Virus record (IMG/VR): IMGVR_UViG_3300006141_000016
Strand: one strand, 5' to 3'
DNA from: a virus
Length of the DNA: 57,386 bases
This document shows, piece after piece, positions 1-57,386 of the stretch (position 1 is the stretch's first letter; every line of letters starts with the position of its first letter). The position numbers and the translations under genes were made by a program. Under the pieces are notes generated by a model. It was not told the DNA's origin. It made no database searches and saw only the letters and a program-made list of their open reading frames with translations.

Positions 1-1833
1 ATACCATGGCTTACACAGCTTGTAAGTGCTATTTCTACAGCCATGACGTACGTGGCGCAGTTTATCGCCGTATTGAGTGGGAAAAGCACGTTCACAAAAG
101 CCAAAAAAGTGCAGGATGATTACAACAAATCTTTGGGCGGCACGGCGAAAGCGGCAGACAAGGCGAGGGGAGCCTTAGCCAAATTTGATGATCTGGATGT
201 GTTGGAAAAGAAAGAAGATACATCCGGCGGGGGAGCTGGAACGGAAGAGACCGGGGCAAACATGTTTGAAGAAGTTCCGGTTGACACTGAAGTATTGAGT
301 TTCTGGCAGCGGGTGCAGGAGGTTATGAAACCGGTTATTGAGTATGCCCGGCAGCTTAAAGATATTTTTTCTCAAGGCTTTTTTGATGGTCTGGGGGATT
401 GGGAATACCGTTGGGAATCCATCAAGTCAAGCATTTCGTCTGTAAAGGAAAGCTTAAAGAATATTTTCACAGACCCGGCAGTATTAGGGGCATCTAATAG
501 CTGGGCACAGTCAGTGGCATATACTCTTGGCTCTATTGCAGGCTCTATATCAAGCATTGGATTAACTATTGCCGAGAATCTGTTCGGAGGAATAGAAATA
601 TTCCTTGATGAAAATAAAGAACAGATTAAAGAAAATCTAATTTCCATGTTTGATGTCATAGAAGACATCAACTATTTGATAGCTTCTTTTGCTGAATCGT
701 TTGCTTACGTTTTTGAAGCATTTGGTGGTGAAAACGGGCAACAACTTACCGCAAATCTTATAGAGATATTTACAAATTCGTTTTTGGAATTAGGTGTAAT
801 AGTCGGAGAACTGGCCGGAGACATTCTAAACATCATCATAAAGCCATTTATAGATAACAAAGAAAAATTTCGCACTGCGTTGGATGGCTTTTTAGGTGTT
901 CTCTCAGAAGTGACAGAAACTATAAAGCAAGGCATAGAAGATACATTTGATAAATTCAATGAAATGTATGATGAGCATCTCAAGCCGTTTTTTAATTCCA
1001 TTGCGGAAGGTCTGTCAGATACTGCCGGAAAGTTTTTTGATTTCTGGAACGAGAACGTGCAGCCAATATTGGAGGAGTGGGCAGAAGGATTTGATGTTTT
1101 GTGGCAGGAACATATTCAGCCAATGTTAGATAAATTTATTGGGTTACTGGGAAAAGTAGGGGATTTCTTGTTAGCTGTTTGGGAAAACATCTTGAAGCCA
1201 CTTATTGACTGGATAATTGAAAATGTTCTTCCAGTTATTCTTCCGATTATAAAAGGAATCGGAGATGCAATCGGAACCTTATTTGGATTAATATCGGATG
1301 TTGTAGGAGGAATTTTTGATATATTTGGCGGACTTATTGATTTCGTAGTAGGTGTGTTCACGGGTGACTGGGAAAAGGCCTGGAATGGTATAGTTGATGT
1401 CTTCAAAGGAATATTTAATCTTATTCCAACTATCATAGAGGGAATACTAAATCTGGCAATAGATTTGATAAACGGGCTTGTAGACGGAATAAATGTTGTT
1501 ACCGGAGTTGTTGGGATACCTGAAATACCAGATATACCAAAAGTAAAACTCCCCCGCCTGGCCACCGGAGCCGTCATCCGCGGCGGAAATCCATTTATGG
1601 CAATCCTGGGCGACCAGCCGGCCGGAAAAACAAATATCGAGGCGCCGCTGGACACCATCAAGCAGGCCGTCCGGGAGGAACTGTCCGGAATTGACTTTGG
1701 AAGTGCCAGAAGCGGGCAGACAAAAGTGGTACTGAATATTAATGGTGTGGATGTGGGAGAAGCGGTGCTGGATGATCTGTTTTCGGTCATGTCCAGGCGT
1801 GGATATGATGTGAGTGTGCTGGGGGTGACGTGA
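1..1833 (+). CDS. Tape measure protein, C-terminal part; same ORF as 55990..57386, wrapping the circular junction (1-131 duplicates 57256-57386)
   Basis: Frame 1 is open from base 1 to TGA 1831-1833. Contains G/I/L-rich hydrophobic blocks (GIGDAIGTLFGLISDVVGGIFDIFGGLIDFVVGVF). Lies directly upstream of the tail genes. Confidence 0.85.
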   Translation: MPWLTQLVSAISTAMTYVAQFIAVLSGKSTFTKAKKVQDDYNKSLGGTAKAADKARGALAKFDDLDVLEKKEDTSGGGAGTEETGANMFEEVPVDTEVLSFWQRVQEVMKPVIEYARQLKDIFSQGFFDGLGDWEYRWESIKSSISSVKESLKNIFTDPAVLGASNSWAQSVAYTLGSIAGSISSIGLTIAENLFGGIEIFLDENKEQIKENLISMFDVIEDINYLIASFAESFAYVFEAFGGENGQQLTANLIEIFTNSFLELGVIVGELAGDILNIIIKPFIDNKEKFRTALDGFLGVLSEVTETIKQGIEDTFDKFNEMYDEHLKPFFNSIAEGLSDTAGKFFDFWNENVQPILEEWAEGFDVLWQEHIQPMLDKFIGLLGKVGDFLLAVWENILKPLIDWIIENVLPVILPIIKGIGDAIGTLFGLISDVVGGIFDIFGGLIDFVVGVFTGDWEKAWNGIVDVFKGIFNLIPTIIEGILNLAIDLINGLVDGINVVTGVVGIPEIPDIPKVKLPRLATGAVIRGGNPFMAILGDQPAGKTNIEAPLDTIKQAVREELSGIDFGSARSGQTKVVLNINGVDVGEAVLDDLFSVMSRRGYDVSVLGVT

Positions 1834-6472: not shown

Positions 6473-7399
6473 ATGCCGATTTATTTTGGGGCAAGTAAAG
6501 CTAAATTTTCTGTGGGAAACAAAAAAGTTATAAAGATGTATCAAGGCGCACAGCTTGTTTATTCCTCAGGGAACGTTTGTAATTATTATGTAAACGGATC
6601 TTTGGTTCACACTCAGGAATACGACGAAGGTCAAAGCGTCTTAAGCCCTTCCTATACTGTCCCGTCTGTTAGCGGGAGAGTTTTTAAAGGCTGGAGCACT
6701 ACTAACGGCGGCCAGCCTGCCGGCTCCTTGACAATGGGAGATTCGCCAATTTCTTTGTATGCCAGGTTTAACTATATTGTAACCTATAACTTCAACGGCC
6801 GGAATTATACTCAAGAGTATGACGAAGGCCAAAGTGTATTATCCCCTTCCGTTGTCTATCCTGCTATCACGGGGGCAACCTTTCTTGGTTGGGTTACTAG
6901 CAGAACCGCCACTACTCCACTAACCAACTTGACGATGGGCTCCGACCCGATTACTTTGTACGCGTTGTTTAAATGGGCTGATACTGACCGCGTTAACCAG
7001 ATTGGTTTGCGTATTAGTTTTGGACAACCTTACAATATCAATTCAAACGAGATCAACGCGACCACGAACCACTCTGGAACGTATACTTATCCGATGGATA
7101 CAAGCAAATACGATCGTCATTATATTAAGGGATATGCTATGGAGCTCCTATGCAACAATAATACAGTTGGGCAAGTATGGTCTACCTCTTACATCGATGG
7201 CGTAGTTGTAAAGCAATACAAAAGTCCTTATGGTGGTGGCGACATTCAAACCATTGTGGATAAGGGTGTAATTGAGTGGACGGTTGCGGGACCTCCGACG
7301 TTTACAGTCGCGGATGGTTCTAGCTTTCATGGCGGGGGTACTAGAAACGGTTTTTATGTAGAAAGTATTAGATTTCTTGGTAAAACGACAACTATTTAA
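6473..7399 (+). CDS. Putative adhesin / receptor-binding protein with two Listeria-Bacteroides (InlB B-repeat-like) repeats
   Basis: AGGAGG RBS. Two tandem ~66-aa repeats (..TQEYDEGQSVLSPS...G..F.GW....LTMG..PI.LYA.F). An alternative ATG lies at 6467. Confidence 0.65.
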   Translation: MPIYFGASKAKFSVGNKKVIKMYQGAQLVYSSGNVCNYYVNGSLVHTQEYDEGQSVLSPSYTVPSVSGRVFKGWSTTNGGQPAGSLTMGDSPISLYARFNYIVTYNFNGRNYTQEYDEGQSVLSPSVVYPAITGATFLGWVTSRTATTPLTNLTMGSDPITLYALFKWADTDRVNQIGLRISFGQPYNINSNEINATTNHSGTYTYPMDTSKYDRHYIKGYAMELLCNNNTVGQVWSTSYIDGVVVKQYKSPYGGGDIQTIVDKGVIEWTVAGPPTFTVADGSSFHGGGTRNGFYVESIRFLGKTTTI

Positions 7400-9528: not shown

Positions 9529-10653
9529 TCATTTACCTATCTTATTGATTTCAGCCCTGAGTTCATCAAGAGTTCTGTGCCCATATTTTAAATCTGTCAC
9601 ATCATTCCCCAGTGCATGCCCCATAAGCATTTTCTTAGACAGTGCGTTTACATTATATTTATCACACAACCAGGAAAAGGTGTGCCTGCAGTCATGTGGG
9701 GTATGGTCCGTTATCCCAATATCCTTCAGCGCAGCGGAAAAAAAGGATCGGAATTGAACAGCCGGCGATGTAAAAAGGGGATTGTCTCTGTGGATGAAGG
9801 GGACTATTCCTTTATTGAATGGAACGATTCTGTTCTTGCCGGCAGCTGTCTTTACGCCTCCCTGGAAGTACTGCTGTTCCATATTGATTTCAAGCTTCTG
9901 GTATGCGGAGATCCGGAAGCCGCTGTAGATCATGATAAGCACGGCCTGCAGAATGTCATTTCCTTCTGCATGCGTCCAGATCAGGGAAAGCTCCTGCTCT
10001 GTAAAGGGTTCTCCTTTTTCATCATCATCGGGTGTATTGATCCTGACATGGTCAGAATACTTTCTGTCACATATGTCATGGGCATATGCGTAGTCATACA
10101 TTTGACGGAAAAGGTTTACAATGTGTTCTTTTGTGGCATGCTTTTTGGAACAGTTGTCAACTACCATTTGTAAATCTTCTGTTTTTATGTTATGGAAGGG
10201 CATATCGTGAAGCGCGGCCGCCTGATTGTACGCGGCTTTTGTAGCTCCAATAGAAGATTTAGAGTAAATGCGTGTCTTATCTCTTTCGTATTTATAAGAA
10301 AAAAATTCTTTATATACTTCAGAGAAGGATTTTGTCTGAGCGGCGTCCCGCGTCTGGCGGTTATAGGAGGCAATGATCCTGGATACCACATCCTGTCCTT
10401 TATCAGACTGGCTGATTGCTGGAGCAGAGAAGTGACCTGGATCAAATGAGCCGGCCCTGTATTCCATCAGGGCATAAAAGCCTGTGTACCAGTCCGAAAC
10501 ATAGCACAGTGCTTTCGGGGTTTTAGGGGAACCGTTTGGAGAAAATTCCGTGGTGGGAGGATATACGGCATATGGGTTTGTCCGGTTGCCGGACAGTTTT
10601 TTGATGCTTCCGAATCCGTTTGGCAGTTTTGGGTGTTTTGGTCTTCTTGACAT
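9529..10653 (-). CDS. int: Tyrosine integrase (site-specific recombinase)
   Basis: C-terminal catalytic motifs HDCRHTF, LMGHA and YGHRT. 374 aa. AAGGAGGA RBS. Confidence 0.9.
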   Translation of the reverse strand: MSRRPKHPKLPNGFGSIKKLSGNRTNPYAVYPPTTEFSPNGSPKTPKALCYVSDWYTGFYALMEYRAGSFDPGHFSAPAISQSDKGQDVVSRIIASYNRQTRDAAQTKSFSEVYKEFFSYKYERDKTRIYSKSSIGATKAAYNQAAALHDMPFHNIKTEDLQMVVDNCSKKHATKEHIVNLFRQMYDYAYAHDICDRKYSDHVRINTPDDDEKGEPFTEQELSLIWTHAEGNDILQAVLIMIYSGFRISAYQKLEINMEQQYFQGGVKTAAGKNRIVPFNKGIVPFIHRDNPLFTSPAVQFRSFFSAALKDIGITDHTPHDCRHTFSWLCDKYNVNALSKKMLMGHALGNDVTDLKYGHRTLDELRAEINKIGK

Positions 10654-10731
10654 TGTATCATCCTCCTTGTGAAATGTGCACAGCGATCAGCTGATATCCT
10701 ACGCTTAAAATTTGGCTGATCTGCATAAATG

Positions 10732-35283: not shown

Positions 35284-35357
35284 TGTGAGGATAGCTTGAC
35301 GGAGCGAAAGCGGCAATCCCTAGTCGTTTCCTCACAATTCCAAAATAGGGAGATTGC
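35284..35357 (+). ncRNA. Conserved structured 5' leader, copy 1
   Basis: Shares blocks TGTGAGGATAGC, GGCAATCCCTAG, TTTCCTCACA and AAATAGGGA with 41616..41686. Has an 8-bp closing stem plus loop-to-downstream complementarity. Confidence 0.55.
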
Positions 35358-44755: not shown

Positions 44756-44802
44756 TCTTCCTCCATTTCCCCCGGCGCAACCCCGCCGGGTGGGTGGTGT
44801 GG

Positions 44803-44961
44803 TTATTTTTTAACCATGTGTTTACTTACTTCGTAAATAATAGATAAAATTTCAAAATTTATGCTTTCGAGTTTTTCTTTTGTAAAAATGAAATCATTTG
44901 TTCTGGTTTGGTGTTTTAGTATTTCTTCAATCATATCTTTTTTCGTGAGTTCTTTTGTCAT
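44803..44961 (-). CDS. Small protein (52 aa), first gene of the minus-strand operon
   Basis: GGAGGATATGGAAA RBS before ATG 44961. Confidence 0.5.
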   Translation of the reverse strand: MTKELTKKDMIEEILKHQTRTNDFIFTKEKLESINFEILSIIYEVSKHMVKK

Positions 44962-44993
44962 TTTCCATATCCTCCGTTCCTTTGATAAGACTA

Positions 44994-45022
44994 ATTATAC
45001 ACACTATAATGTGTAATTTCAA
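44994..45022 (-). promoter_or_regulatory. Strong sigma-A-type promoter TTGAAA-17-TATAAT for the small-gene operon
   Basis: Read on the minus strand. Overlapped by an operator-like inverted repeat. Confidence 0.6.
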
Positions 45023-45084
45023 TCAGCATAATAAACAAAGATTTACACATTTTATTGTGCAATAGTTACATTTTAAAGTGTGTA
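44998..45084. promoter_or_regulatory. Three operator-like inverted repeats TACACA-N6-TGTGTA
   Basis: Perfect at 44998..45015, one mismatch at 45044..45061, degenerate at 45067..45084. Confidence 0.55.
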
Positions 45085-45118
45085 ATAATGTGGTATGCTT
45101 TAATGGGAGGTGGTATAG

Positions 45119-45337
45119 GTGATAATTTACAAGGATATTCTGCAAAAACTCAAAGACGCAGGATACAACACGAACCGCATAAGGAAAGAGGGATTGCTGT
45201 CAGAAGGTACTTTGCAGAGATTGAGAGAGGGCAGGCCAATCACAACAGAAACGATAGATATTATATGTAACCTGACAGGGTGCAAGGTCGAGGAAATAAT
45301 AGAGCATAAAATCTCCCACGACAATGGGCGGCAGTGA
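45119..45337 (+). CDS. XRE/Cro-type HTH regulator divergent from the small-gene operon
   Basis: GTG start after GGGAGGTGG. LLSEGTLQRLREGRPITTETIDIICNLTGCKVEEII. Confidence 0.7.
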   Translation: MIIYKDILQKLKDAGYNTNRIRKEGLLSEGTLQRLREGRPITTETIDIICNLTGCKVEEIIEHKISHDNGRQ

Positions 45338-45358
45338 TGCCGCTCTTTTGCGTATAAC

Positions 45359-45392
45359 TTGGTACAAATAAATTCTGGAAGCATGTTATCAT
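45359..45392 (+). promoter_or_regulatory. Conserved promoter motif copy (TTGGTACAA-N19-TATCAT)
   Basis: Exact spacing. Points into the ORF-poor region. Confidence 0.55.
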
Positions 45393-45581
45393 GTATCTAT
45401 CAAACAAAAGGAGGATGCCGACATGAAGACTCGGAATCACAAAGCAAACTTTTAACTAACAATCTGCGGCCAGGACAAAAGCGCCAAACGTGGCGTTCTT
45501 CGGAACAATTCGCGGCTGTAAGAACACGTTAAACTATGTAAGCCCGCACTGCACAGTCCTTGCAGACAGAAAATGGACAAA

Positions 45582-45672
45582 GGCAAGATAGCCCTGACTC
45601 CGAACGTGGAGCAATCAGGTATGTTGGGTTCAGCATTTGAACAAAACGCAGGTTCAATTCCTGCTCTTGCCA
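45582..45672 (+). ncRNA. 91-nt tRNA-like element with a non-canonical core
   Basis: Perfect 7-bp acceptor stem GGCAAGA/TCTTGCC and a canonical T-arm GCAGG-TTCAATT-CCTGC. I could not fold standard D or anticodon arms. Confidence 0.4.
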
Positions 45673-45790
45673 TGCGTGGCGTTGACTTTTTCTTGTTTTG
45701 AAACCACACGTACAAAAAGGGTAGTAAAACAAGTATGGTTCTGATAGGGGATTTTCCCCTGTCGGAAATCGCAAAATGGAGGACATTGGA

Positions 45791-45973
45791 ATGGAAGATA
45801 GGGAGTTTCTGCTTTTTGCTCTTTTACTAAACTGTTTAACAGTACCATCTTGCCCGCCAAACGGACATGGATACTATTATAAAAATGGTGTAGAAAAGTG
45901 CAATGGACAAGCATTTTTTACAGAGGGAATCGGTCTGCATGATGGAACCGGTAGGAAAGTTGAGTTAAGATGA
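45791..45973 (+). CDS. Possible small secreted Cys-containing peptide (60 aa)
   Basis: GGAGGA 8 nt upstream of ATG 45791. Hydrophobic N-terminus FLLFALLLNCLTV. Confidence 0.3.
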   Translation: MEDREFLLFALLLNCLTVPSCPPNGHGYYYKNGVEKCNGQAFFTEGIGLHDGTGRKVELR

Positions 45974-46148
45974 TTTTCTGCCAAACTTTGGCACAATATG
46001 GCCAGTAAAAAGCATTAAGAAATGGGCGCGACATAAGGTAAGACCGAAAAAAGTAGGCACTGAATATAATCAAAGACAGGGACAAATGCGAAGCGTTTCC
46101 TGCGGTACTAATGCTTTTTATTATATAGAAATCGGGAGGGATAGGGAA

Positions 46149-46382
46149 ATGGAAGAATTAAAGAAATGTCCGTTTTGTGGTGGCAAAGCGATATTTAACA
46201 CAGTCAGTAATTCATCGTCACATCACGGAGTTGGATTTGACTTTGAAATCGAATGTGAGGACTGCGGTGTAAAATTGCCAAATAGGTATAAAGTTGAGTT
46301 TTCCTTGACGGATAGCGGTGGCATAAATCCGTTATATGACGACAGAAAGAGGGCTGTTGAAGAATGGAACAATCGACCATGA
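46149..46382 (+). CDS. Lar-family restriction-alleviation-like protein
   Basis: LKKCPFCGGKA...CEDCG...AVEEWNNRP matches the Lar pattern (CPFCG ... WNxR). GGGAGGGATAGGGAA RBS. Confidence 0.65.
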   Translation: MEELKKCPFCGGKAIFNTVSNSSSHHGVGFDFEIECEDCGVKLPNRYKVEFSLTDSGGINPLYDDRKRAVEEWNNRP

Positions 46383-46549
46383 CAGAAAAATGAGTACTCT
46401 GCCCCATCTGCGGAGGAAAAACCCGCACGAAAATCAGACCGGACACGGAGGCGAAAAACCTGCCTATATTCTGCAAGATATGCAAAAATGAATTTCTTGC
46501 AAATATTAAGGATTTGAAAACGGAGGTATCGCATGACAAAAGAAGATAG
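46379..46549 (+). pseudogene. Cys-rich KTR-domain gene interrupted by an in-frame TGA at codon 5
   Basis: MTEK-TGA-VLCPICGGKTRTKIRPDTEAKNLPIFCKICKNEFLANI. The family consensus as recalled has Trp at the stop position. Confidence 0.6.
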
Positions 46550-46706
46550 AGATAACATTTATAGACGGGTAAATGAAGCGGTTATAGAGCCAAGCGAGCC
46601 TATGAATTTAGTTGAAATTAAAGCCTATGTAAAGGGCTGCGAATATGCTTACAACGCATTTTTTGACGCGATTGATAAAGCATACGGAGAAACGAAAACA
46701 GATTAG
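46533..46706 (+). CDS. Hypothetical (57 aa)
   Basis: GGAGGTATCGC RBS before ATG 46533. Confidence 0.5.
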   Translation: MTKEDRDNIYRRVNEAVIEPSEPMNLVEIKAYVKGCEYAYNAFFDAIDKAYGETKTD

Positions 46707-46707
46707 A

Positions 46708-46770
46708 GCCAGACGCATTGACGCAGTGCCAGTAGATGCGTGAGAGCGTGTTTGCTGGCATTTTTATTTT
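46708..46770 (+). terminator. Compound hairpin followed by a T-run
   Basis: GCCAG/CTGGC outer stem and ACGCAT/ATGCGT inner stem, followed by ATTTTTATTTT. Confidence 0.45.
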
Positions 46771-46813
46771 GCTAACATCTTATTTTTGATAAATCCTACC
46801 CTCCTAAGAGGGT

Positions 46814-46864
46814 GCATCCGTCAGTAATGGCGCTGTAAAGGCGGTTCGATTCCGCACGGGTGCA
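46814..46864 (+). ncRNA. tRNA-like minihelix (acceptor stem and T-arm only)
   Basis: GCATCCG/CGGGTGC acceptor stem (one G-U pair) and GGCGG-TTCGATT-CCGC T-arm. Only 19 nt lie between them, so D and anticodon arms are absent. Confidence 0.4.
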
Positions 46865-46934
46865 TTTCTGCATAAACAGTGCAGAACATTTCCCTTTCCA
46901 AGCGCCTGCCCATTGCGGGCGGGCGCACCCTCCT

Positions 46935-47007
46935 CGGATTTTAGCGCAGTTGGCAGAGCACCTGTCTTATATACAGGCGGTCGGTGGTTCGATTCCACCA
47001 ATTCCGA
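46935..47007 (+). tRNA. trnI(UAU): tRNA-Ile, anticodon UAU
   Basis: Manual cloverleaf: 7-bp acceptor stem (one mismatch), D-arm GCGC/GAGC with a GG loop, anticodon stem CCTGT/ACAGG with loop CTTATAT, T-arm GGTGG-TTCGATT-CCACC. Confidence 0.7.
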
Positions 47008-47152
47008 TTACCCCGGCAAAGGTTTATTTGCCTACTCCCTTGCGTGGGCGGCACGCTATAAAAACGCTATGGAGGAAAACTTGGCAAAGTATAAATGCTT
47101 ACTCTCATATGCGGACAGCGCATTATAAAAAATGTTATGGAGGACATGAAGC

Positions 47153-47761
47153 ATGAAAAACATTGAACAGATTTTGAAAGAAGCAGGAGTTGAGGTTACG
47201 GACGAGCAGAAAGCGGCGATTGTTTCCGAGGTTGGCAAGAACTACAGAACATCTACTGACTACGATCGGCAGGCTAAGAAGCTGGAAGCGGCGGAATCTG
47301 ACAGGGACGCTTACAAAGGGCAGCTGGACACGGCGAATGAGACCCTGGAGAAGTTCAAGGACATTGACCCAGAGAAACAGGCAGAGGAAATTCAGAAGTA
47401 CAAGCAGGCGGCAAAAGAAGCGCAGGAAACCGCAGACAAACGGATTCTGGAGCGTGACCAGCGGGACTACCTCAAAGGTGAGTTTGACAAGCTGAAAATC
47501 GAATCAGGACGTGTCAGGGATTCGCTTATGCGTGAAATCATGGGCGAAGACGGTTTGAAGTGGAAGGACGGCGAATTTATGGGGCTGTCGGACTATCTGG
47601 AAAAGGAGAATGAAAAAGACCACTTCTATCAGACCGAAGCTGAAAAGGCAGAAGCCGAAGCCAAAGAGAAAGCCGCCGGAAGTGCGCCGAAATTTACAGA
47701 CAAGTCCGAGCCGAAGCAGACCCAGGTAAAAGATACCAGTCCGGCTCCTGTGATTTTCTAA
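47153..47761 (+). CDS. Scaffolding protein (Phage_GP20-like)
   Basis: Coiled, charged 202 aa. N-terminus MKNIEQILKEAGVEVTDEQKAAI typical of GP20 scaffolds. Precedes the capsid gene. Confidence 0.75.
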   Translation: MKNIEQILKEAGVEVTDEQKAAIVSEVGKNYRTSTDYDRQAKKLEAAESDRDAYKGQLDTANETLEKFKDIDPEKQAEEIQKYKQAAKEAQETADKRILERDQRDYLKGEFDKLKIESGRVRDSLMREIMGEDGLKWKDGEFMGLSDYLEKENEKDHFYQTEAEKAEAEAKEKAAGSAPKFTDKSEPKQTQVKDTSPAPVIF

Positions 47762-55989: not shown

Positions 55990-57386
55990 GTGGCAGAGTA
56001 TGATGGAAGTATAAGGATAGGAACGGGAATAGATATACAAGGTTTTGACGATGATGGGAAGAAACTGGAAGCAAAAGCCAGAAGGCTTGCAGAAAACATT
56101 TCCGGAAATTCCGATGTAGAAATAAAGGTAGATTCTACCACTGCAAAAAAAGAATTAAAAGAAGCTTTTGATGACATTGAAAAAGAAGAAAAGAGGATTG
56201 AGGAACTTGCTAAGAGGGCAGTTGAGAGGGCAAGAGGGAGTCAGACGGCGACTTACGTGCCAGAAGAGCCTAGGTATGGTGCGCCTATTTCAACACCCGG
56301 ATATAATCAAGACGCAATTAAAGCTATCGAGGAACAAACTGAAAAAGTAGATAAAATAGATGAACACTGGAACCAGCTCAGAATAGATGTCGAAGAGTAC
56401 GCAAGATCCTTGAAGGAGCTTCAGGGCCAGGGGAAATTTTTTGGCGATGAAGATTATGACCAGCTTTATCTTTATTGGAAAAATGCCACAGATGCCGTAA
56501 AAGCCTATCAGGCAGAGCTGAACAAACAGACAGACTCCGGCCAGACGAAGATCGCCGAACAGGAAGCGAAAGCGACAGAGAAAAGAGAAGCGGCCCAGCG
56601 CCGGGCAGAGGAGCAGGCAGAAAGGGCCTTGCAAAGAGAAAACGAGCGTATCCAGAGGCAGGCCGAAAACGAGGCAAAGCTTGCTGCAAAAGAGGCGGAA
56701 CGCCAGACGAAAATTCAGGCTGAAGCGGAAGAAGAACAGCGTCTTGACCAGATAAGGGTGAATGCCACAGTATCCAATCAGGAGATCGTTGATCTGCTGG
56801 AACGCCGCAGACAGCTAATATCAGAAATCAAAGATATGGAAGCGGCAGGTGTCGGACTGGGCTACCAGCAGTATGAGGACGCAAACCGGGAGCTGGAAGA
56901 GGTAAACGGTAAGATTAAAGAGTACCGGAAGAACCTTGGAAGTGTACCTGAGAAGTTTAATAAAATGCGGAAATCTGCAAACAAAGCTTTTACTGCAGTA
57001 GCGCAGGGAACAAAGAAAAGCAGCGCACTGTTGTCTAATTTCACAAGCAGATTAAAAGGCATCGCCCTTTCTCTCTTGATTTTTAACTGGATATCCAAGG
57101 GTTTTAACGCCATGATATCCGGCATGAAAAAAGGCTTTGAGAACTTTGCCGGATACTCTGATTCCTATGCACAGAATATCCAGAATATGAAGAATGCCAT
57201 GTCGACGCTGGGGAATCAGTTTGCCGCGGCATTTGCCCCTATCGTCCAGATGGTTATACCATGGCTTACACAGCTTGTAAGTGCTATTTCTACAGCCATG
57301 ACGTACGTGGCGCAGTTTATCGCCGTATTGAGTGGGAAAAGCACGTTCACAAAAGCCAAAAAAGTGCAGGATGATTACAACAAATC
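55990..57386 (+). CDS. Tape measure protein, N-terminal part (continues at base 1)
   Basis: GTG start after AAGGTGGTGA. Open to the window end in the same frame as base 1. Coiled-coil Glu/Lys/Gln-rich region. Total about 1032 aa once the overlap is removed. Confidence 0.85.
   Translation, partial: MAEYDGSIRIGTGIDIQGFDDDGKKLEAKARRLAENISGNSDVEIKVDSTTAKKELKEAFDDIEKEEKRIEELAKRAVERARGSQTATYVPEEPRYGAPISTPGYNQDAIKAIEEQTEKVDKIDEHWNQLRIDVEEYARSLKELQGQGKFFGDEDYDQLYLYWKNATDAVKAYQAELNKQTDSGQTKIAEQEAKATEKREAAQRRAEEQAERALQRENERIQRQAENEAKLAAKEAERQTKIQAEAEEEQRLDQIRVNATVSNQEIVDLLERRRQLISEIKDMEAAGVGLGYQQYEDANRELEEVNGKIKEYRKNLGSVPEKFNKMRKSANKAFTAVAQGTKKSSALLSNFTSRLKGIALSLLIFNWISKGFNAMISGMKKGFENFAGYSDSYAQNIQNMKNAMSTLGNQFAAAFAPIVQMVIPWLTQLVSAISTAMTYVAQFIAVLSGKSTFTKAKKVQDDYNK
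57256..57386 (+). repeat. 131-bp terminal overlap identical to 1..131
   Basis: Base-for-base identity read directly from the sequence. Confidence 0.98.

What the first reader, a model, noticed from the sequence alone, without database searches (positions are those of the whole stretch)
45393..46058. Promoter-driven ORF-poor, hairpin-rich region with an embedded tRNA-like element: candidate large structured RNA
A late-type promoter (45359..45392) points into about 650 nt with no convincing CDS. The region holds only a 10-codon ORF (45423..45455, 10 aa) and a doubtful 60-aa ORF.

- It contains a C(UUCG)G tetraloop hairpin (45495..45506) and several other clean stems.
- The 9-mer CGTGGCGTT is repeated.
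- A 91-nt element (45582..45672) has a perfect acceptor stem and T-arm but a non-canonical core.
- A tRNA and a second tRNA-like minihelix lie 0.9-1.3 kb downstream.

Large ornate RNAs of prophages (GOLLD and ROOL classes) are known to lie next to tRNA genes. I cannot confirm membership of either class from memory.
Basis: partly seen in the sequence, partly recalled or inferred. Interest (0 to 1): 0.75.

Follow-up and report, generated by a model that had tools for sequence, protein, structure and literature searches.

The report
Phage tRNA-like RNA gene cassette
The flagged stretch is not one large ornate RNA: it is a promoter-driven cassette in a gut Lachnospiraceae phage that carries a 91-nt tRNA look-alike with no usable anticodon, followed by a real 60-codon gene, and related phages fill the same slot with other tRNA look-alikes, true tRNAs or a tmRNA.

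Summary
Two points fail. The "doubtful" 60-aa ORF (45791-45973) is a conserved gene. The repeated 9-mer is at chance level.

The GOLLD/ROOL reading is not supported. No covariance model other than tRNA matches, even at E<=10. Comparison with 33 related arrays from IMG/VR phages and mouse-gut Lachnospiraceae genomes shows separate, freely exchanged modules, in this order:
- promoter;
- variable leader;
- conserved hairpin (2 compensatory pairs);
- 1-6 tRNA-like modules, sometimes with true tRNAs or a tmRNA;
- conserved hairpin plus ribosome-binding site;
- variable small ORF.

The window's module keeps a perfect 7-bp acceptor stem and 5-bp T arm. Its D arm is a 27-nt hairpin and its anticodon arm ends in a 5-nt loop, so it cannot decode.

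Best reading: a tRNA-derived, non-decoding small RNA matured by tRNA-processing enzymes. This is inferred, and its role is unknown. Only four near-identical variants exist, so covariation cannot separate this from a pseudogene relic.

The parts
45326..45345 (+). Intrinsic terminator ending the upstream HTH gene (45119-45337). The terminator and the last codons of that gene are shared by relatives whose upstream genes otherwise differ.
   Evidence: 8-bp stem with 6 G-C pairs, then a T run.
45355..45392 (+). Phage promoter motif TAACTTGGTACAA, then 19 nt, then TATCAT with TG just upstream (extended -10). The transcription start is inferred near 45399.
   Evidence: Five copies in the window, including one upstream of terS. 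It also precedes the related arrays wherever the held upstream sequence shows a promoter, about 20 of 32.
45410..45455 (+). Ribosome-binding site GGAGGA plus a 10-codon leader mini-ORF (ATG at 45423; MKTRNHKANF*).
   Evidence: One class of related leaders has mini-ORFs of 2-17 codons. Translation is not shown.
45482..45506 (+). Two small leader hairpins: CGCC-AAACGU-GGCG (45482-45495) and GUUC-UUCG-GAAC (45495-45506).
   Evidence: The first is conserved in the same leader type (L029, L013, L041). The second is not.
45549..45581 (+). Conserved leader block. It is a hairpin CUGCA-CAGUCCU-UGCAG followed by ACAGAAAAUGGACAAA, and it ends exactly at the 5' end of the tRNA-like element.
   Evidence: Present in all 33 unique arrays (which were collected with this block as the search pattern). 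98.7% of cells are paired, 2 of 5 pairs show compensatory changes, and slid controls pair in 23-41% of cells.
45582..45672 (+). 91-nt tRNA-like RNA gene ("module A").
- 7-bp acceptor stem GGCAAGA/UCUUGCC with A73.
- T arm GCAGG-UUCAAUU-CCUGC.
- The D arm is replaced by a 27-nt two-part hairpin.
- The anticodon arm is a 3+5-bp stem with a 5-nt loop GCAUU.
- No CCA is encoded.
45668..45690 (+). Weak terminator-like hairpin UGCCA-UGCG-UGGCG followed by a U-rich tract. It overlaps the 3' acceptor strand. Only the window and L050 have it.
45743..45763 (+). Conserved 9-bp hairpin GAUAGGGGA-UUU-UCCCCUGUC just upstream of the ribosome-binding site.
   Evidence: Twenty-five sequence variants in relatives. 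It is always the last non-coding module. In L040 it precedes a tmRNA instead of an ORF.
45778..45973 (+). Ribosome-binding site GGAGGA (45778-45783) and a 60-aa protein gene (ATG at 45791, stop ending at 45973).
46005..46125 (+). A separate structured leader upstream of the Lar gene. A 14-bp closing stem (46005-46018 with 46108-46121) encloses about 90 nt and is followed by a U run.
   Evidence: Ten variants and 3 pairs with compensatory changes. It is an optional insert between a promoter and a ribosome-binding site. One search gives no Rfam match.
46725..46762 (+). Strong intrinsic terminator that closes the small-gene cassette (Lar, KTR, 57-aa ORF).
   Evidence: 17-pair stem followed by a T run.
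46813..46865 (+). Second tRNA-like minihelix: an 8-bp acceptor-like stem, a 20-nt connector, and a 4-bp T stem with loop UUCGAUU.
   Evidence: Eighteen variants in relatives. Substitutions are mixed, about 5 preserving and 6-7 breaking pairs. One copy is a chimera recombined inside the T loop.
46934..47008 (+). Canonical tRNA-Ile(UAU).
   Evidence: ARAGORN; Rfam, 58.2 bits.

Best explanation
The region is one cassette of a modular small-RNA and accessory-gene locus in a temperate siphophage of mouse-gut Lachnospiraceae.

Shown:
- A conserved phage promoter motif (45355-45392) points into the cassette; transcription from it is inferred.
- A leader follows, containing a mini-ORF and small hairpins.
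- A conserved hairpin block (45549-45581) ends exactly where the 91-nt tRNA-derived gene begins (45582-45672).
- After it come a conserved hairpin, a ribosome-binding site and a real 60-aa gene.
- The 91-nt RNA keeps the 12-bp acceptor/T-arm helix and the T-loop consensus of a tRNA.
- It has no D arm with G18G19 and no 7-nt anticodon loop, so it cannot decode.

Inferred from knowledge of tRNA maturation in Firmicutes:
- RNase P cuts at G45582.
- An RNase Z-type cut follows A45672. No CCA is encoded and a U follows the discriminator.
- CCA is then added, giving a stable tRNA-shaped RNA of about 94 nt.
- The downstream mRNA is released with the conserved hairpin near its new 5' end.

Function (speculative, roughly 0.35): the RNA acts in trans as a tRNA mimic. 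It could be a ligand or decoy for a host or phage factor that recognises the acceptor/T-arm half of tRNAs.

How likely is each step:
- tRNA-derived interchangeable module in a tRNA/tmRNA-type array: about 0.85.
- Matured like a tRNA: about 0.6.

The overall confidence of 0.5 is for the statement as a whole, excluding the speculative trans-acting role.
For: Identity as a tRNA derivative:
- Rfam tRNA scores 34.1 bits, above the cut-off, and the orthologue in L010 scores 33.2 bits.
- All 29 base pairs of the four-way junction form, z -4.2. The core alone has z -2.3, the best of 18 modules tested.

Modular array:
- 33 unique arrays share the order promoter, leader, hairpin, modules, hairpin plus ribosome-binding site, small ORF.
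- A strict acceptor-plus-T-arm scan finds 104 elements (64 unique). Block-shuffled controls give 2-7.
- The elements form about 17 non-canonical families. Canonical tRNAs for Ile, Gln, Ser, Tyr, Met, Pro, Thr and Ala occur in the same loci.
- L040 carries a tmRNA scoring 92.5 bits.

Module A moves as a unit:
- It occurs behind five different leaders and in front of two different 3' flanks. Its boundaries coincide with the tRNA-like ends.

Structure-neutral variation:
- The four variants differ at four positions. Two are unpaired and two turn a Watson-Crick pair into G-U. None breaks a pair.

Sibling evidence for constraint on the acceptor/T-arm helix:
- The GGAUAG acceptor family has at least 7 members with different T stems, all fully paired. 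One member has a compensatory change in the acceptor stem.
- The L002 and L043 pair of elements also shows compensatory changes in the acceptor stem.

Maturation route:
- None of 61 elements encodes CCA, and U follows the discriminator in 42 of 61.

Flanking hairpin:
- The leader hairpin covaries.
Against: - No expression, processing or aminoacylation data exist for this element.
- Module A has only four near-identical variants across IMG/VR, 185,579 species genomes and the metagenome collection. No compensatory change can be scored. Four neutral substitutions are only weak evidence (my estimate, p about 0.07).
- A covariance model built from module A finds no diverged homologue. The best other hit scores 22 bits against 117-120 bits for the five near-identical copies.
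- Sibling families show signs of decay:
  - The minihelix family has about as many pair-breaking as pair-preserving substitutions.
  - One minihelix copy is a chimera recombined in the T loop.
  - Isolated T-arm fragments occur in some arrays.
  - Module B has mismatches and no covariation.
- Modules are shared at 96-100% identity because exchange is recent, so sequence conservation says little about function.
- No RNA-handling enzyme is encoded among the window ORFs scanned.
Confidence: 0.5

Rival explanations
1. It is a decaying tRNA pseudogene or recombination relic. The slot is a hot spot where phage tRNA genes are gained, recombined (often within the shared GGTTCGATTCC T-loop sequence) and lost. 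The 91-nt element would be leftover DNA with no function of its own, transcribed only because it lies in a leader.
For: - One minihelix copy is a chimera joined inside the T loop (L050).
- Several minihelix copies carry stem-breaking substitutions (L055, L013, L020, L043, L048).
- Elements with two T arms and lone T-arm hairpins occur.
- Modules A and B show no compensatory change.
- Partial tRNA gene fragments are reported as common in prokaryotic genomes. PMC9897764 makes this point; it appeared and I read only its abstract.
Against: - Decay should produce mismatches. Module A has 29 of 29 pairs intact. Its replacement arms are new, longer, well-formed hairpins.
- About 17 families with unrelated cores all keep the same 12-bp helix. 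My scanner required pairing, so this is partly selection bias.
- Module boundaries coincide with the tRNA-like ends in five different contexts.
- T stems differ but stay paired within the GGAUAG acceptor family.
Confidence: 0.28
2. It is a purely cis-acting processing signal. The tRNA-like fold exists only so that RNase P and RNase Z cut the transcript. That removes the leader and leaves the downstream mRNA starting near the conserved hairpin, which protects it from 5' exonuclease. The excised RNA itself would be discarded.
For: - The conserved 9-bp hairpin always sits between the last module and the ribosome-binding site.
- No CCA is encoded and U follows the discriminator.
- By analogy, and from my own knowledge rather than any test here: the mitochondrial tRNA punctuation model, the MALAT1 mascRNA, and the tRNA-like elements of murine gammaherpesvirus 68.
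Against: - One cut site would be enough, yet relatives carry up to 4-6 different modules in tandem.
- Distinct cores are kept as recognisable families across phages.
- The same slot holds functional tRNAs and a tmRNA.
- A canonical tRNA would serve as a cut site equally well.
Confidence: 0.17
3. It is one large ornate structured RNA of about 650 nt, of the GOLLD or ROOL class or a new class.
For: - The region follows a promoter, is rich in hairpins and lies near tRNAs in a prophage.
- The 748-nt fold has z -2.4, from only 20 shuffles.
- Non-coding stretches reach 1.1-1.6 kb in L061 and L057.
Against: - No GOLLD, ROOL or other large-RNA model matches at E<=10 in the window or in relatives.
- Modules are exchanged independently, and no long-range pairing is conserved.
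- A conserved protein gene lies in the middle of the interval.
Confidence: 0.03
4. The non-coding look is deceptive, and the region encodes proteins throughout. Candidates are the 42-aa ORF 45573-45701 that starts in the conserved block, and the 85-87-aa ORFs on the minus strand.
For: - The ORFs exist.
- The conserved block contains an ATG.
Against: - None has a Pfam match.
- The ATG in the conserved block has no ribosome-binding site. It reads into a different module in each phage, giving 8-, 10- or 42-codon products with nothing in common.
- The minus-strand ORFs span module junctions that differ between relatives.
Confidence: 0.02

Closest known systems
Canonical bacterial and phage tRNA (Rfam RF00005)
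   Same: - 7-bp acceptor stem with discriminator A.
- 5-bp T stem with a 7-nt UUCAAUU loop.
- Four-way junction.
- Scores above the family cut-off.
- Lies in an operon-like array with true tRNAs, and like them has no encoded CCA.
   Different: - The D arm is a 27-nt hairpin without G18G19.
- The anticodon arm has a 5-nt loop with no U33 and no purine at position 37.
- ARAGORN rejects it, and it cannot decode.
tRNA-like domain of tmRNA
   Same: - An acceptor/T-arm helix is kept while the anticodon arm is replaced by non-decoding RNA.
- A true phage tmRNA occupies the same locus type in L040.
   Different: - Only 91 nt long.
- No pseudoknots and no tag reading frame.
- C3-G70 instead of G3-U70.
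- Matched by neither the tmRNA models nor ARAGORN.
Small stable RNAs of the phage T4 tRNA cluster (species 1 and 2, also called RNA C and D). From my own knowledge, not tested here.
   Same: - Non-tRNA small RNAs co-transcribed with phage tRNAs.
- Released by the tRNA-processing machinery.
- Function still unknown.
   Different: - Unrelated sequences, a different host phylum, and no modular exchange described.
- The comparison rests on memory only.
Bacterial Y RNA YrlA, with a tRNA-mimicking domain. PMC4201824 appeared; only its abstract was seen, and the details are from my own knowledge.
   Same: - A non-coding RNA that copies the acceptor, T and D features of tRNA.
- It is handled by tRNA enzymes.
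- A relative of this locus type (Dulem virus 39) has an RtcB ligase gene nearby, as yrlA operons do.
   Different: - No Ro-binding stem formed by the 5' and 3' ends.
- No Ro or RtcB gene in the window.
- No YrlA match in Rfam.
GOLLD and ROOL large RNAs
   Same: Prophage location next to tRNA genes, and non-coding.
   Different: - No covariance-model match.
- The element is small and modular rather than a 500-800-nt conserved fold.
Candidate tRNA-like structured RNAs predicted in IMG/VR phages (PMC10690425)
   Same: - A general class of phage-encoded tRNA-like candidates missed or only sometimes called by ARAGORN.
- Some of the paper's candidate RNAs, including one from phages of Lachnospiraceae, are highly expressed in gut small-RNA data.
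   Different: That survey names no array architecture. I could not check whether any of its models matches this element, because no supplementary files are held.

Membership tests
tRNA (RF00005) | Covariance-model score at or above the gathering cut-off of 29 bits. | tested here: met
   34.1 bits, E 0.0021 for the whole window and 8.8e-05 for the 2.4-kb region.
tRNA (RF00005) | 7-bp acceptor stem with discriminator, and a 5-bp T stem with a 7-nt T loop of consensus UUCRANY. | tested here: met
   GGCAAGA/UCUUGCC plus A, and GCAGG-UUCAAUU-CCUGC. All pairs are standard in four variants.
tRNA (RF00005) | D arm with a 3-4-bp stem and a loop carrying G18G19. | tested here: not met
   The model needs a 26-nt insertion here. 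The fold gives a 5+4-bp hairpin with loop GAACGU and no GG.
tRNA (RF00005) | 5-bp anticodon stem with a 7-nt loop (U33, anticodon, purine 37). | tested here: not met
   The loop is 5 nt (GCAUU). If one pair is opened the loop reads AGCAUUU, with G at position 33 and U at position 37. ARAGORN makes no call.
tRNA (RF00005) | Processing by RNase P and RNase Z, CCA addition, and aminoacylation. | not testable with these tools
   Only indirect evidence: no CCA is encoded and U follows the discriminator, as in the canonical tRNAs of these loci.
tmRNA (RF00023 and clan) | Model or ARAGORN match, a tag reading frame, and G3-U70. | tested here: not met
   No tmRNA call in the window. Position 3-70 is C-G. 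By contrast L040 8772-9078 scores 92.5 bits and has the tag ADRKLAMVA*.
GOLLD / ROOL | Match to the family covariance model. | tested here: not met
   No match at E<=10 in 44800-47200. No match at gathering score in the window or in 25 related loci, nor at E<=1 in three more loci.
GOLLD / ROOL | One conserved long-range architecture spanning several hundred nucleotides. | tested here: not met
   The blocks are exchanged independently between phages whose capsid proteins are 90-98% identical.
Y RNA / YrlA | The 5' and 3' ends form a Ro-binding stem, and a Ro (and often RtcB) gene lies adjacent. | tested here: not met
   - The flanks are not complementary.
- No such Pfam domain was found among the window ORFs scanned.
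- No Rfam match.
Protein-coding gene (for the ORF 45791-45973) | Homologues of conserved length, an excess of third-position changes, and a ribosome-binding site. | tested here: met
   - Homologues of 77% and 68% identity, each 60 aa.
- Differences by codon position are 9/7/17, 13/6/19 and 10/6/16.
- GGAGGA lies 7 nt upstream of the ATG.

The most novel reading that the evidence does not exclude
These Lachnospiraceae phages may carry an exchangeable library of "tRNA-scaffolded" small RNAs. The acceptor/T-arm half of a tRNA would serve as a handle for processing, stability and perhaps CCA addition. The D and anticodon arms would be replaced by diverse effector domains. The library would be expressed from a late-type promoter behind a dedicated conserved leader hairpin, together with true tRNAs and a tmRNA. 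The RNAs would act as mimics or decoys that protect the phage's translation supply from tRNA-targeting host immunity, or that capture tRNA-binding host proteins. The window's 91-nt element would be one member.
Probability: 0.3. Interest if true: 0.8.

Novelty: new variant of a known kind. Interest (0 to 1): 0.55.

Why it matters
Phage tRNA genes are now understood partly as countermeasures to tRNA-cleaving defence systems. tRNA-shaped RNAs that cannot decode have hardly been studied in phages.

This locus type has three features that make it tractable:
- A defined promoter, leader hairpin and 3' hairpin frame interchangeable tRNA look-alikes, true tRNAs and a tmRNA.
- About 17 distinct look-alike families occur in one narrow phage group.
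- Prophages are present in cultured mouse-gut isolates, such as Eubacterium sp. 14-2 and Lachnospiraceae bacterium JLR.KK009.

If the look-alikes are matured and stable, they would be a natural counterpart of the engineered tRNA scaffold. They would also be a new class of phage effector RNA. If they are relics, the locus documents how fast phage tRNA genes are remodelled by recombination at T loops.

There is a practical point for annotation too. Gene callers place spurious small "hypothetical proteins" across such arrays, as in the Dulem virus 39 record.

Tried and rejected
- GOLLD, ROOL or any other Rfam family. Gathering and E<=10 scans of the window, and scans of about 30 related loci, found only tRNA, tmRNA, int-alpA, one RAGATH-27 and noise.
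- Annotated relatives. blastn of the region and of 17 kb of the window against 50,697 GenBank phages found nothing. A related array gave only short tRNA or tmRNA matches plus the leader hairpin in Dulem virus 39.
- More homologues of module A.
  - An exact 25-mer found one near-identical contig.
  - One tolerant pattern was mistyped by one N and wasted a viral scan.
  - The corrected pattern on the metagenome collection found 2 contigs, both identical to known variants.
  - A covariance model of module A found no diverged copy in 375 kb of related loci.
- Stop-codon recoding as a link to the tRNA-like element. The in-frame TGA in the KTR gene suggested it. The rest of the genome reads normally in code 11, and a relative has TGG at that codon, so it is a nonsense mutation.
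- RtcB association. Only Dulem virus 39 has it among the held loci.
- Folding z-scores of module cores as a test of function. Canonical tRNA cores are not distinguishable from shuffles either, so the test has no power.
- The hairpin motif CC-RAACGU-GG as a widespread protein site. It is confined to one leader type and module A.
- Literature. Five full-text searches found no description of this array type.
Full report
**Context**

The window has an exact 131-nt terminal overlap, so it is a circular assembly of 57,255 bp. It is a temperate siphophage genome. Pfam assigns these genes:
- integrase, 9529-10686 on the minus strand;
- DUF927 primase, two DNA methylases, small terminase (29584) and large terminase (30403);
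- minor capsid proteins (34755, 36174);
- scaffold (47153). The major capsid gene (47790) is assigned by its position after the scaffold gene; it has no significant Pfam or PHROG match.

About 9 kb of small accessory genes lie between the minor capsid and scaffold genes, and the finding sits there. Exact matches to a conserved block of the locus occur in 21 IMG/VR contigs and 16 loci of species-representative genomes. All of the latter are Lachnospiraceae or close Clostridia, mostly from mouse gut. GenBank phages hold no close relative.

**Checking the observation**

- Promoter. The string at 45359-45392 belongs to a motif: TTGGTACAA, then 18-20 nt, then TAnnAT (mostly with TGn just upstream; 19 nt in this copy). 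It occurs five times in the window. One copy lies upstream of the terminase genes, which fits the label "late-type". It also precedes the related arrays wherever the held upstream sequence shows a promoter, about 20 of 32. The simple sigma-70 scan does not list it; by my reading the -35 region is atypical.
- Mini-ORF. The 10-codon ORF has a strong ribosome-binding site. It recurs with one residue changed in L029, and as 17- or 2-codon versions in other leaders.
- UUCG hairpin. It exists but is not conserved in the closest leaders.
- Repeated 9-mer. It is at chance level. Both copies lie in look-alike hairpins of the form YCC-RNNCGU-GGR. A third such hairpin lies inside the tRNA-like element.
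- 91-nt element. It matches the Rfam tRNA model above the curated cut-off (34.1 bits), with large insertions in the D and anticodon regions. ARAGORN does not call it. It folds into a four-way junction of -36.5 kcal/mol, z -4.2.
- Downstream features. The tRNA-Ile(UAU) and the minihelix are real.
- The one substantive error. The "doubtful" ORF is a gene. From the ATG at 45791 it encodes 60 aa. Homologues of 77% and 68% identity have the same length. Differences concentrate at third codon positions. Each homologue lies behind the same hairpin and ribosome-binding site.

**What the region is**

I compared the window with phages whose capsid proteins are 90-98% identical. The region turned out to be a mosaic of short conserved blocks separated by unrelated sequence.

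I collected all loci carrying one such block (CTTGCAGACAKAAAATGGAC). This gave 33 unique arrays with a common order:
1. the promoter;
2. a variable leader of 0-230 nt;
3. the conserved hairpin CUGCA-CAGUCCU-UGCAG followed by ACAGAAAAUGGAC;
4. one to six structured modules;
5. a conserved 3' block ending in the hairpin GAUAGGGGA-N-UCCCCUGUC and a ribosome-binding site;
6. a small ORF that differs from phage to phage.

The 5' hairpin is supported by covariation. Two of its five pairs show compensatory changes, 98.7% of cells are paired, and slid controls pair in 23-41% of cells.

The modules right after this hairpin are mostly tRNA-shaped. A strict scan required a 5-bp T stem, a T-loop consensus and a 7-bp acceptor stem. 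It found 104 elements (64 unique) in 1.18 Mb (both strands) of held sequence. Block-shuffled controls gave 2-7. Clustering gives three groups:
- about a dozen canonical tRNAs (Ile-UAU, Gln, Ser, Tyr, Met, Pro, Thr, Ala);
- about 17 non-canonical families of 59-166 nt, in which the D and/or anticodon arms are replaced, expanded or missing;
- two or three chance hits inside genes.

One array (L040) has a tmRNA (92.5 bits, tag ADRKLAMVA*) where other arrays have the small ORF. More distant relatives have 1.1-1.6 kb of such RNA modules in front of the homologous 60-aa gene.

**The window's element (module A)**

It exists in only four sequence variants anywhere I could search. It sits behind five different leaders and in front of two different 3' flanks. 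The exchange boundaries coincide with the ends of the tRNA-like fold.

The four variable positions are two unpaired bases and two changes from a Watson-Crick pair to G-U. All 29 pairs hold in all variants, but there is no compensatory change. A covariance model built from it finds nothing similar beyond the near-identical copies.

Sibling families give mixed signals.
- For constraint: at least seven modules share the acceptor GGAUAG/CUAUCC but have different, always-paired T stems. One of them has a compensatory change in the acceptor. The L002 and L043 pair shows compensatory acceptor changes.
- Against constraint: the minihelix family has about as many pair-breaking as pair-preserving substitutions, and one copy is a chimera recombined inside the T loop. 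Module B shows no covariation.

**How it most likely works**

Shown:
- a conserved promoter motif upstream (transcription from it is inferred);
- a conserved hairpin abutting the 5' end;
- an intact acceptor/T-arm helix;
- no decoding loop;
- no encoded CCA in any of 61 elements, and U after the discriminator in 42 of 61;
- a conserved hairpin and ribosome-binding site downstream;
- a real small gene.

Inferred from established knowledge of tRNA maturation in Firmicutes, where precursors lacking CCA are cut by RNase P and RNase Z and then receive CCA:
- the element is excised as a tRNA-shaped RNA of about 94 nt;
- the downstream mRNA is released with the hairpin near its 5' end.

It cannot read codons, so any function must rest on the acceptor/T-arm half or on the replaced arms. 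I favour a trans-acting tRNA mimic (about 0.35) over an inert relic (about 0.28) or a pure processing signal (about 0.17). My reasons:
- the replaced arms are well-formed new hairpins rather than decayed stems;
- relatives keep several different modules in tandem;
- functional tRNAs and a tmRNA share the slot.

None of this is direct evidence.

**Comparison with known systems**

The element passes the tRNA model score and the acceptor and T-arm criteria. It fails the D-arm and anticodon-loop criteria, so it is tRNA-like and not a tRNA. It is not a tmRNA, a Y RNA, GOLLD or ROOL by any test I could run.

From my own knowledge, the nearest analogues in behaviour are:
- the small stable RNAs of the T4 tRNA cluster;
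- the tRNA-like domain of tmRNA;
- YrlA;
- tRNA-like processing elements such as mascRNA.

A survey of IMG/VR predicted many tRNA-like candidates in phages but describes no such array. Five literature searches found no description of this locus type.

**Verdict**

The large-ornate-RNA interpretation is not supported.

The locus belongs to an apparently undescribed modular array of tRNA look-alikes in Lachnospiraceae phages. That is moderately interesting in its own right. The function of the window's element remains unproven, and a relic origin is not excluded.

Noticed in passing
window 46379-46549 (+): A Cys_rich_KTR gene (Pfam E 7.7e-21 when W is placed at the stop) starts with an ATG that overlaps the Lar stop codon (ATGA). 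It has an in-frame TGA at codon 5 (46391-46393) with no later start codon. The relative L020 has TGG there, so the window copy carries a nonsense mutation. The rest of the genome reads in code 11.
   Followed up: yes
window 1-131 and 57256-57386: The two ends are an exact 131-nt repeat, so the window is a circular assembly of a complete phage genome of 57,255 bp.
   Followed up: yes
window 46005-46125 (+): A structured leader of about 117 nt lies upstream of the Lar gene. A 14-bp closing stem is followed by a U run. Ten variants show compensatory changes at 3 pairs. In relatives it is an optional insert between a TTGGTACAAC...TACAATATA promoter and the ribosome-binding site. It has no Rfam match. 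It is a candidate attenuator or small RNA.
   Followed up: partly
window 35284-35350 (+): An int-alpA RNA motif (45.9 bits, cut-off 35.8) lies directly behind another copy of the TTGGTACAA promoter (35244). It overlaps the start of an ORF with weak, below-cut-off HNH and AP2 Pfam matches. The same arrangement occurs in L010, L035, L043 and L054.
   Followed up: no
L040 8772-9078: A phage-encoded tmRNA (Rfam 92.5 bits; ARAGORN tag ADRKLAMVA*) sits directly after the conserved 3' hairpin, where other arrays have a small ORF.
   Followed up: partly
L013 6026-6099, L022 3040-3113, L035 7862-7935, L037 4181-4254: A 74-nt tRNA with a CCA (Trp) anticodon loop and an odd D arm. ARAGORN misses it and Rfam scores it 33-37 bits. 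The L037 copy has compensatory changes in the anticodon stem, so it is probably a working atypical tRNA.
   Followed up: partly
L020 1944-2085, L022 1610-1708, L029 10355-10452, L057 2278-2419, L061 2331-2408 and 2597-2762, plus the module B copies: A family of tRNA-like modules (78-166 nt) shares the acceptor stem GGAUAG/CUAUCC. Their cores are unrelated. Their T stems differ but are always paired. This suggests a sequence-specific constraint on the acceptor.
   Followed up: partly
L064 (Dulem virus 39, PP511791.1, 54438-59473): A lemur-gut phage carries the same leader hairpin block, tRNAs for Gln, Ser (two) and Ile, a RAGATH-27 RNA (77.2 bits) and an RtcB RNA ligase gene 1.5 kb downstream. 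Several annotated "hypothetical proteins" of 35-80 aa lie across the RNA genes. No other held locus has RtcB.
   Followed up: partly
window 45482-45495, 45598-45611 and 45668-45681 (+): Three look-alike hairpins of the form YCC-RNNCGU-GGR lie within 200 nt, one of them inside the tRNA-like element. The motif is not widespread in relatives.
   Followed up: yes
window 45308-45345 and the matching stretches of L002, L010 and L013: Otherwise different upstream genes in the window, L002 and L010 end in the same C-terminal residues (KISHD-N/K-GRQ*), and their stop codon lies in the loop of the shared terminator. L013 shares only the terminator. The recombination boundary therefore lies inside the gene end.
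   Followed up: no
L050, minus strand, near 6905; also L055, L013, L020, L043 and L048: One copy of the minihelix is a chimera whose 3' half comes from another tRNA-like element, joined inside the T loop. Other copies carry stem-breaking substitutions. T loops seem to act as recombination points, and not all copies are constrained.
   Followed up: partly
window 45634 (loop position 53 of the tRNA-like element) and the L050 copy: The central triplet of the 5-nt loop is CAU in three variants and UAU in L050. Both are anticodons used by AUA-reading tRNA-Ile, and the phage carries a canonical tRNA-Ile(UAU) 1.3 kb downstream. This may be a coincidence.
   Followed up: no
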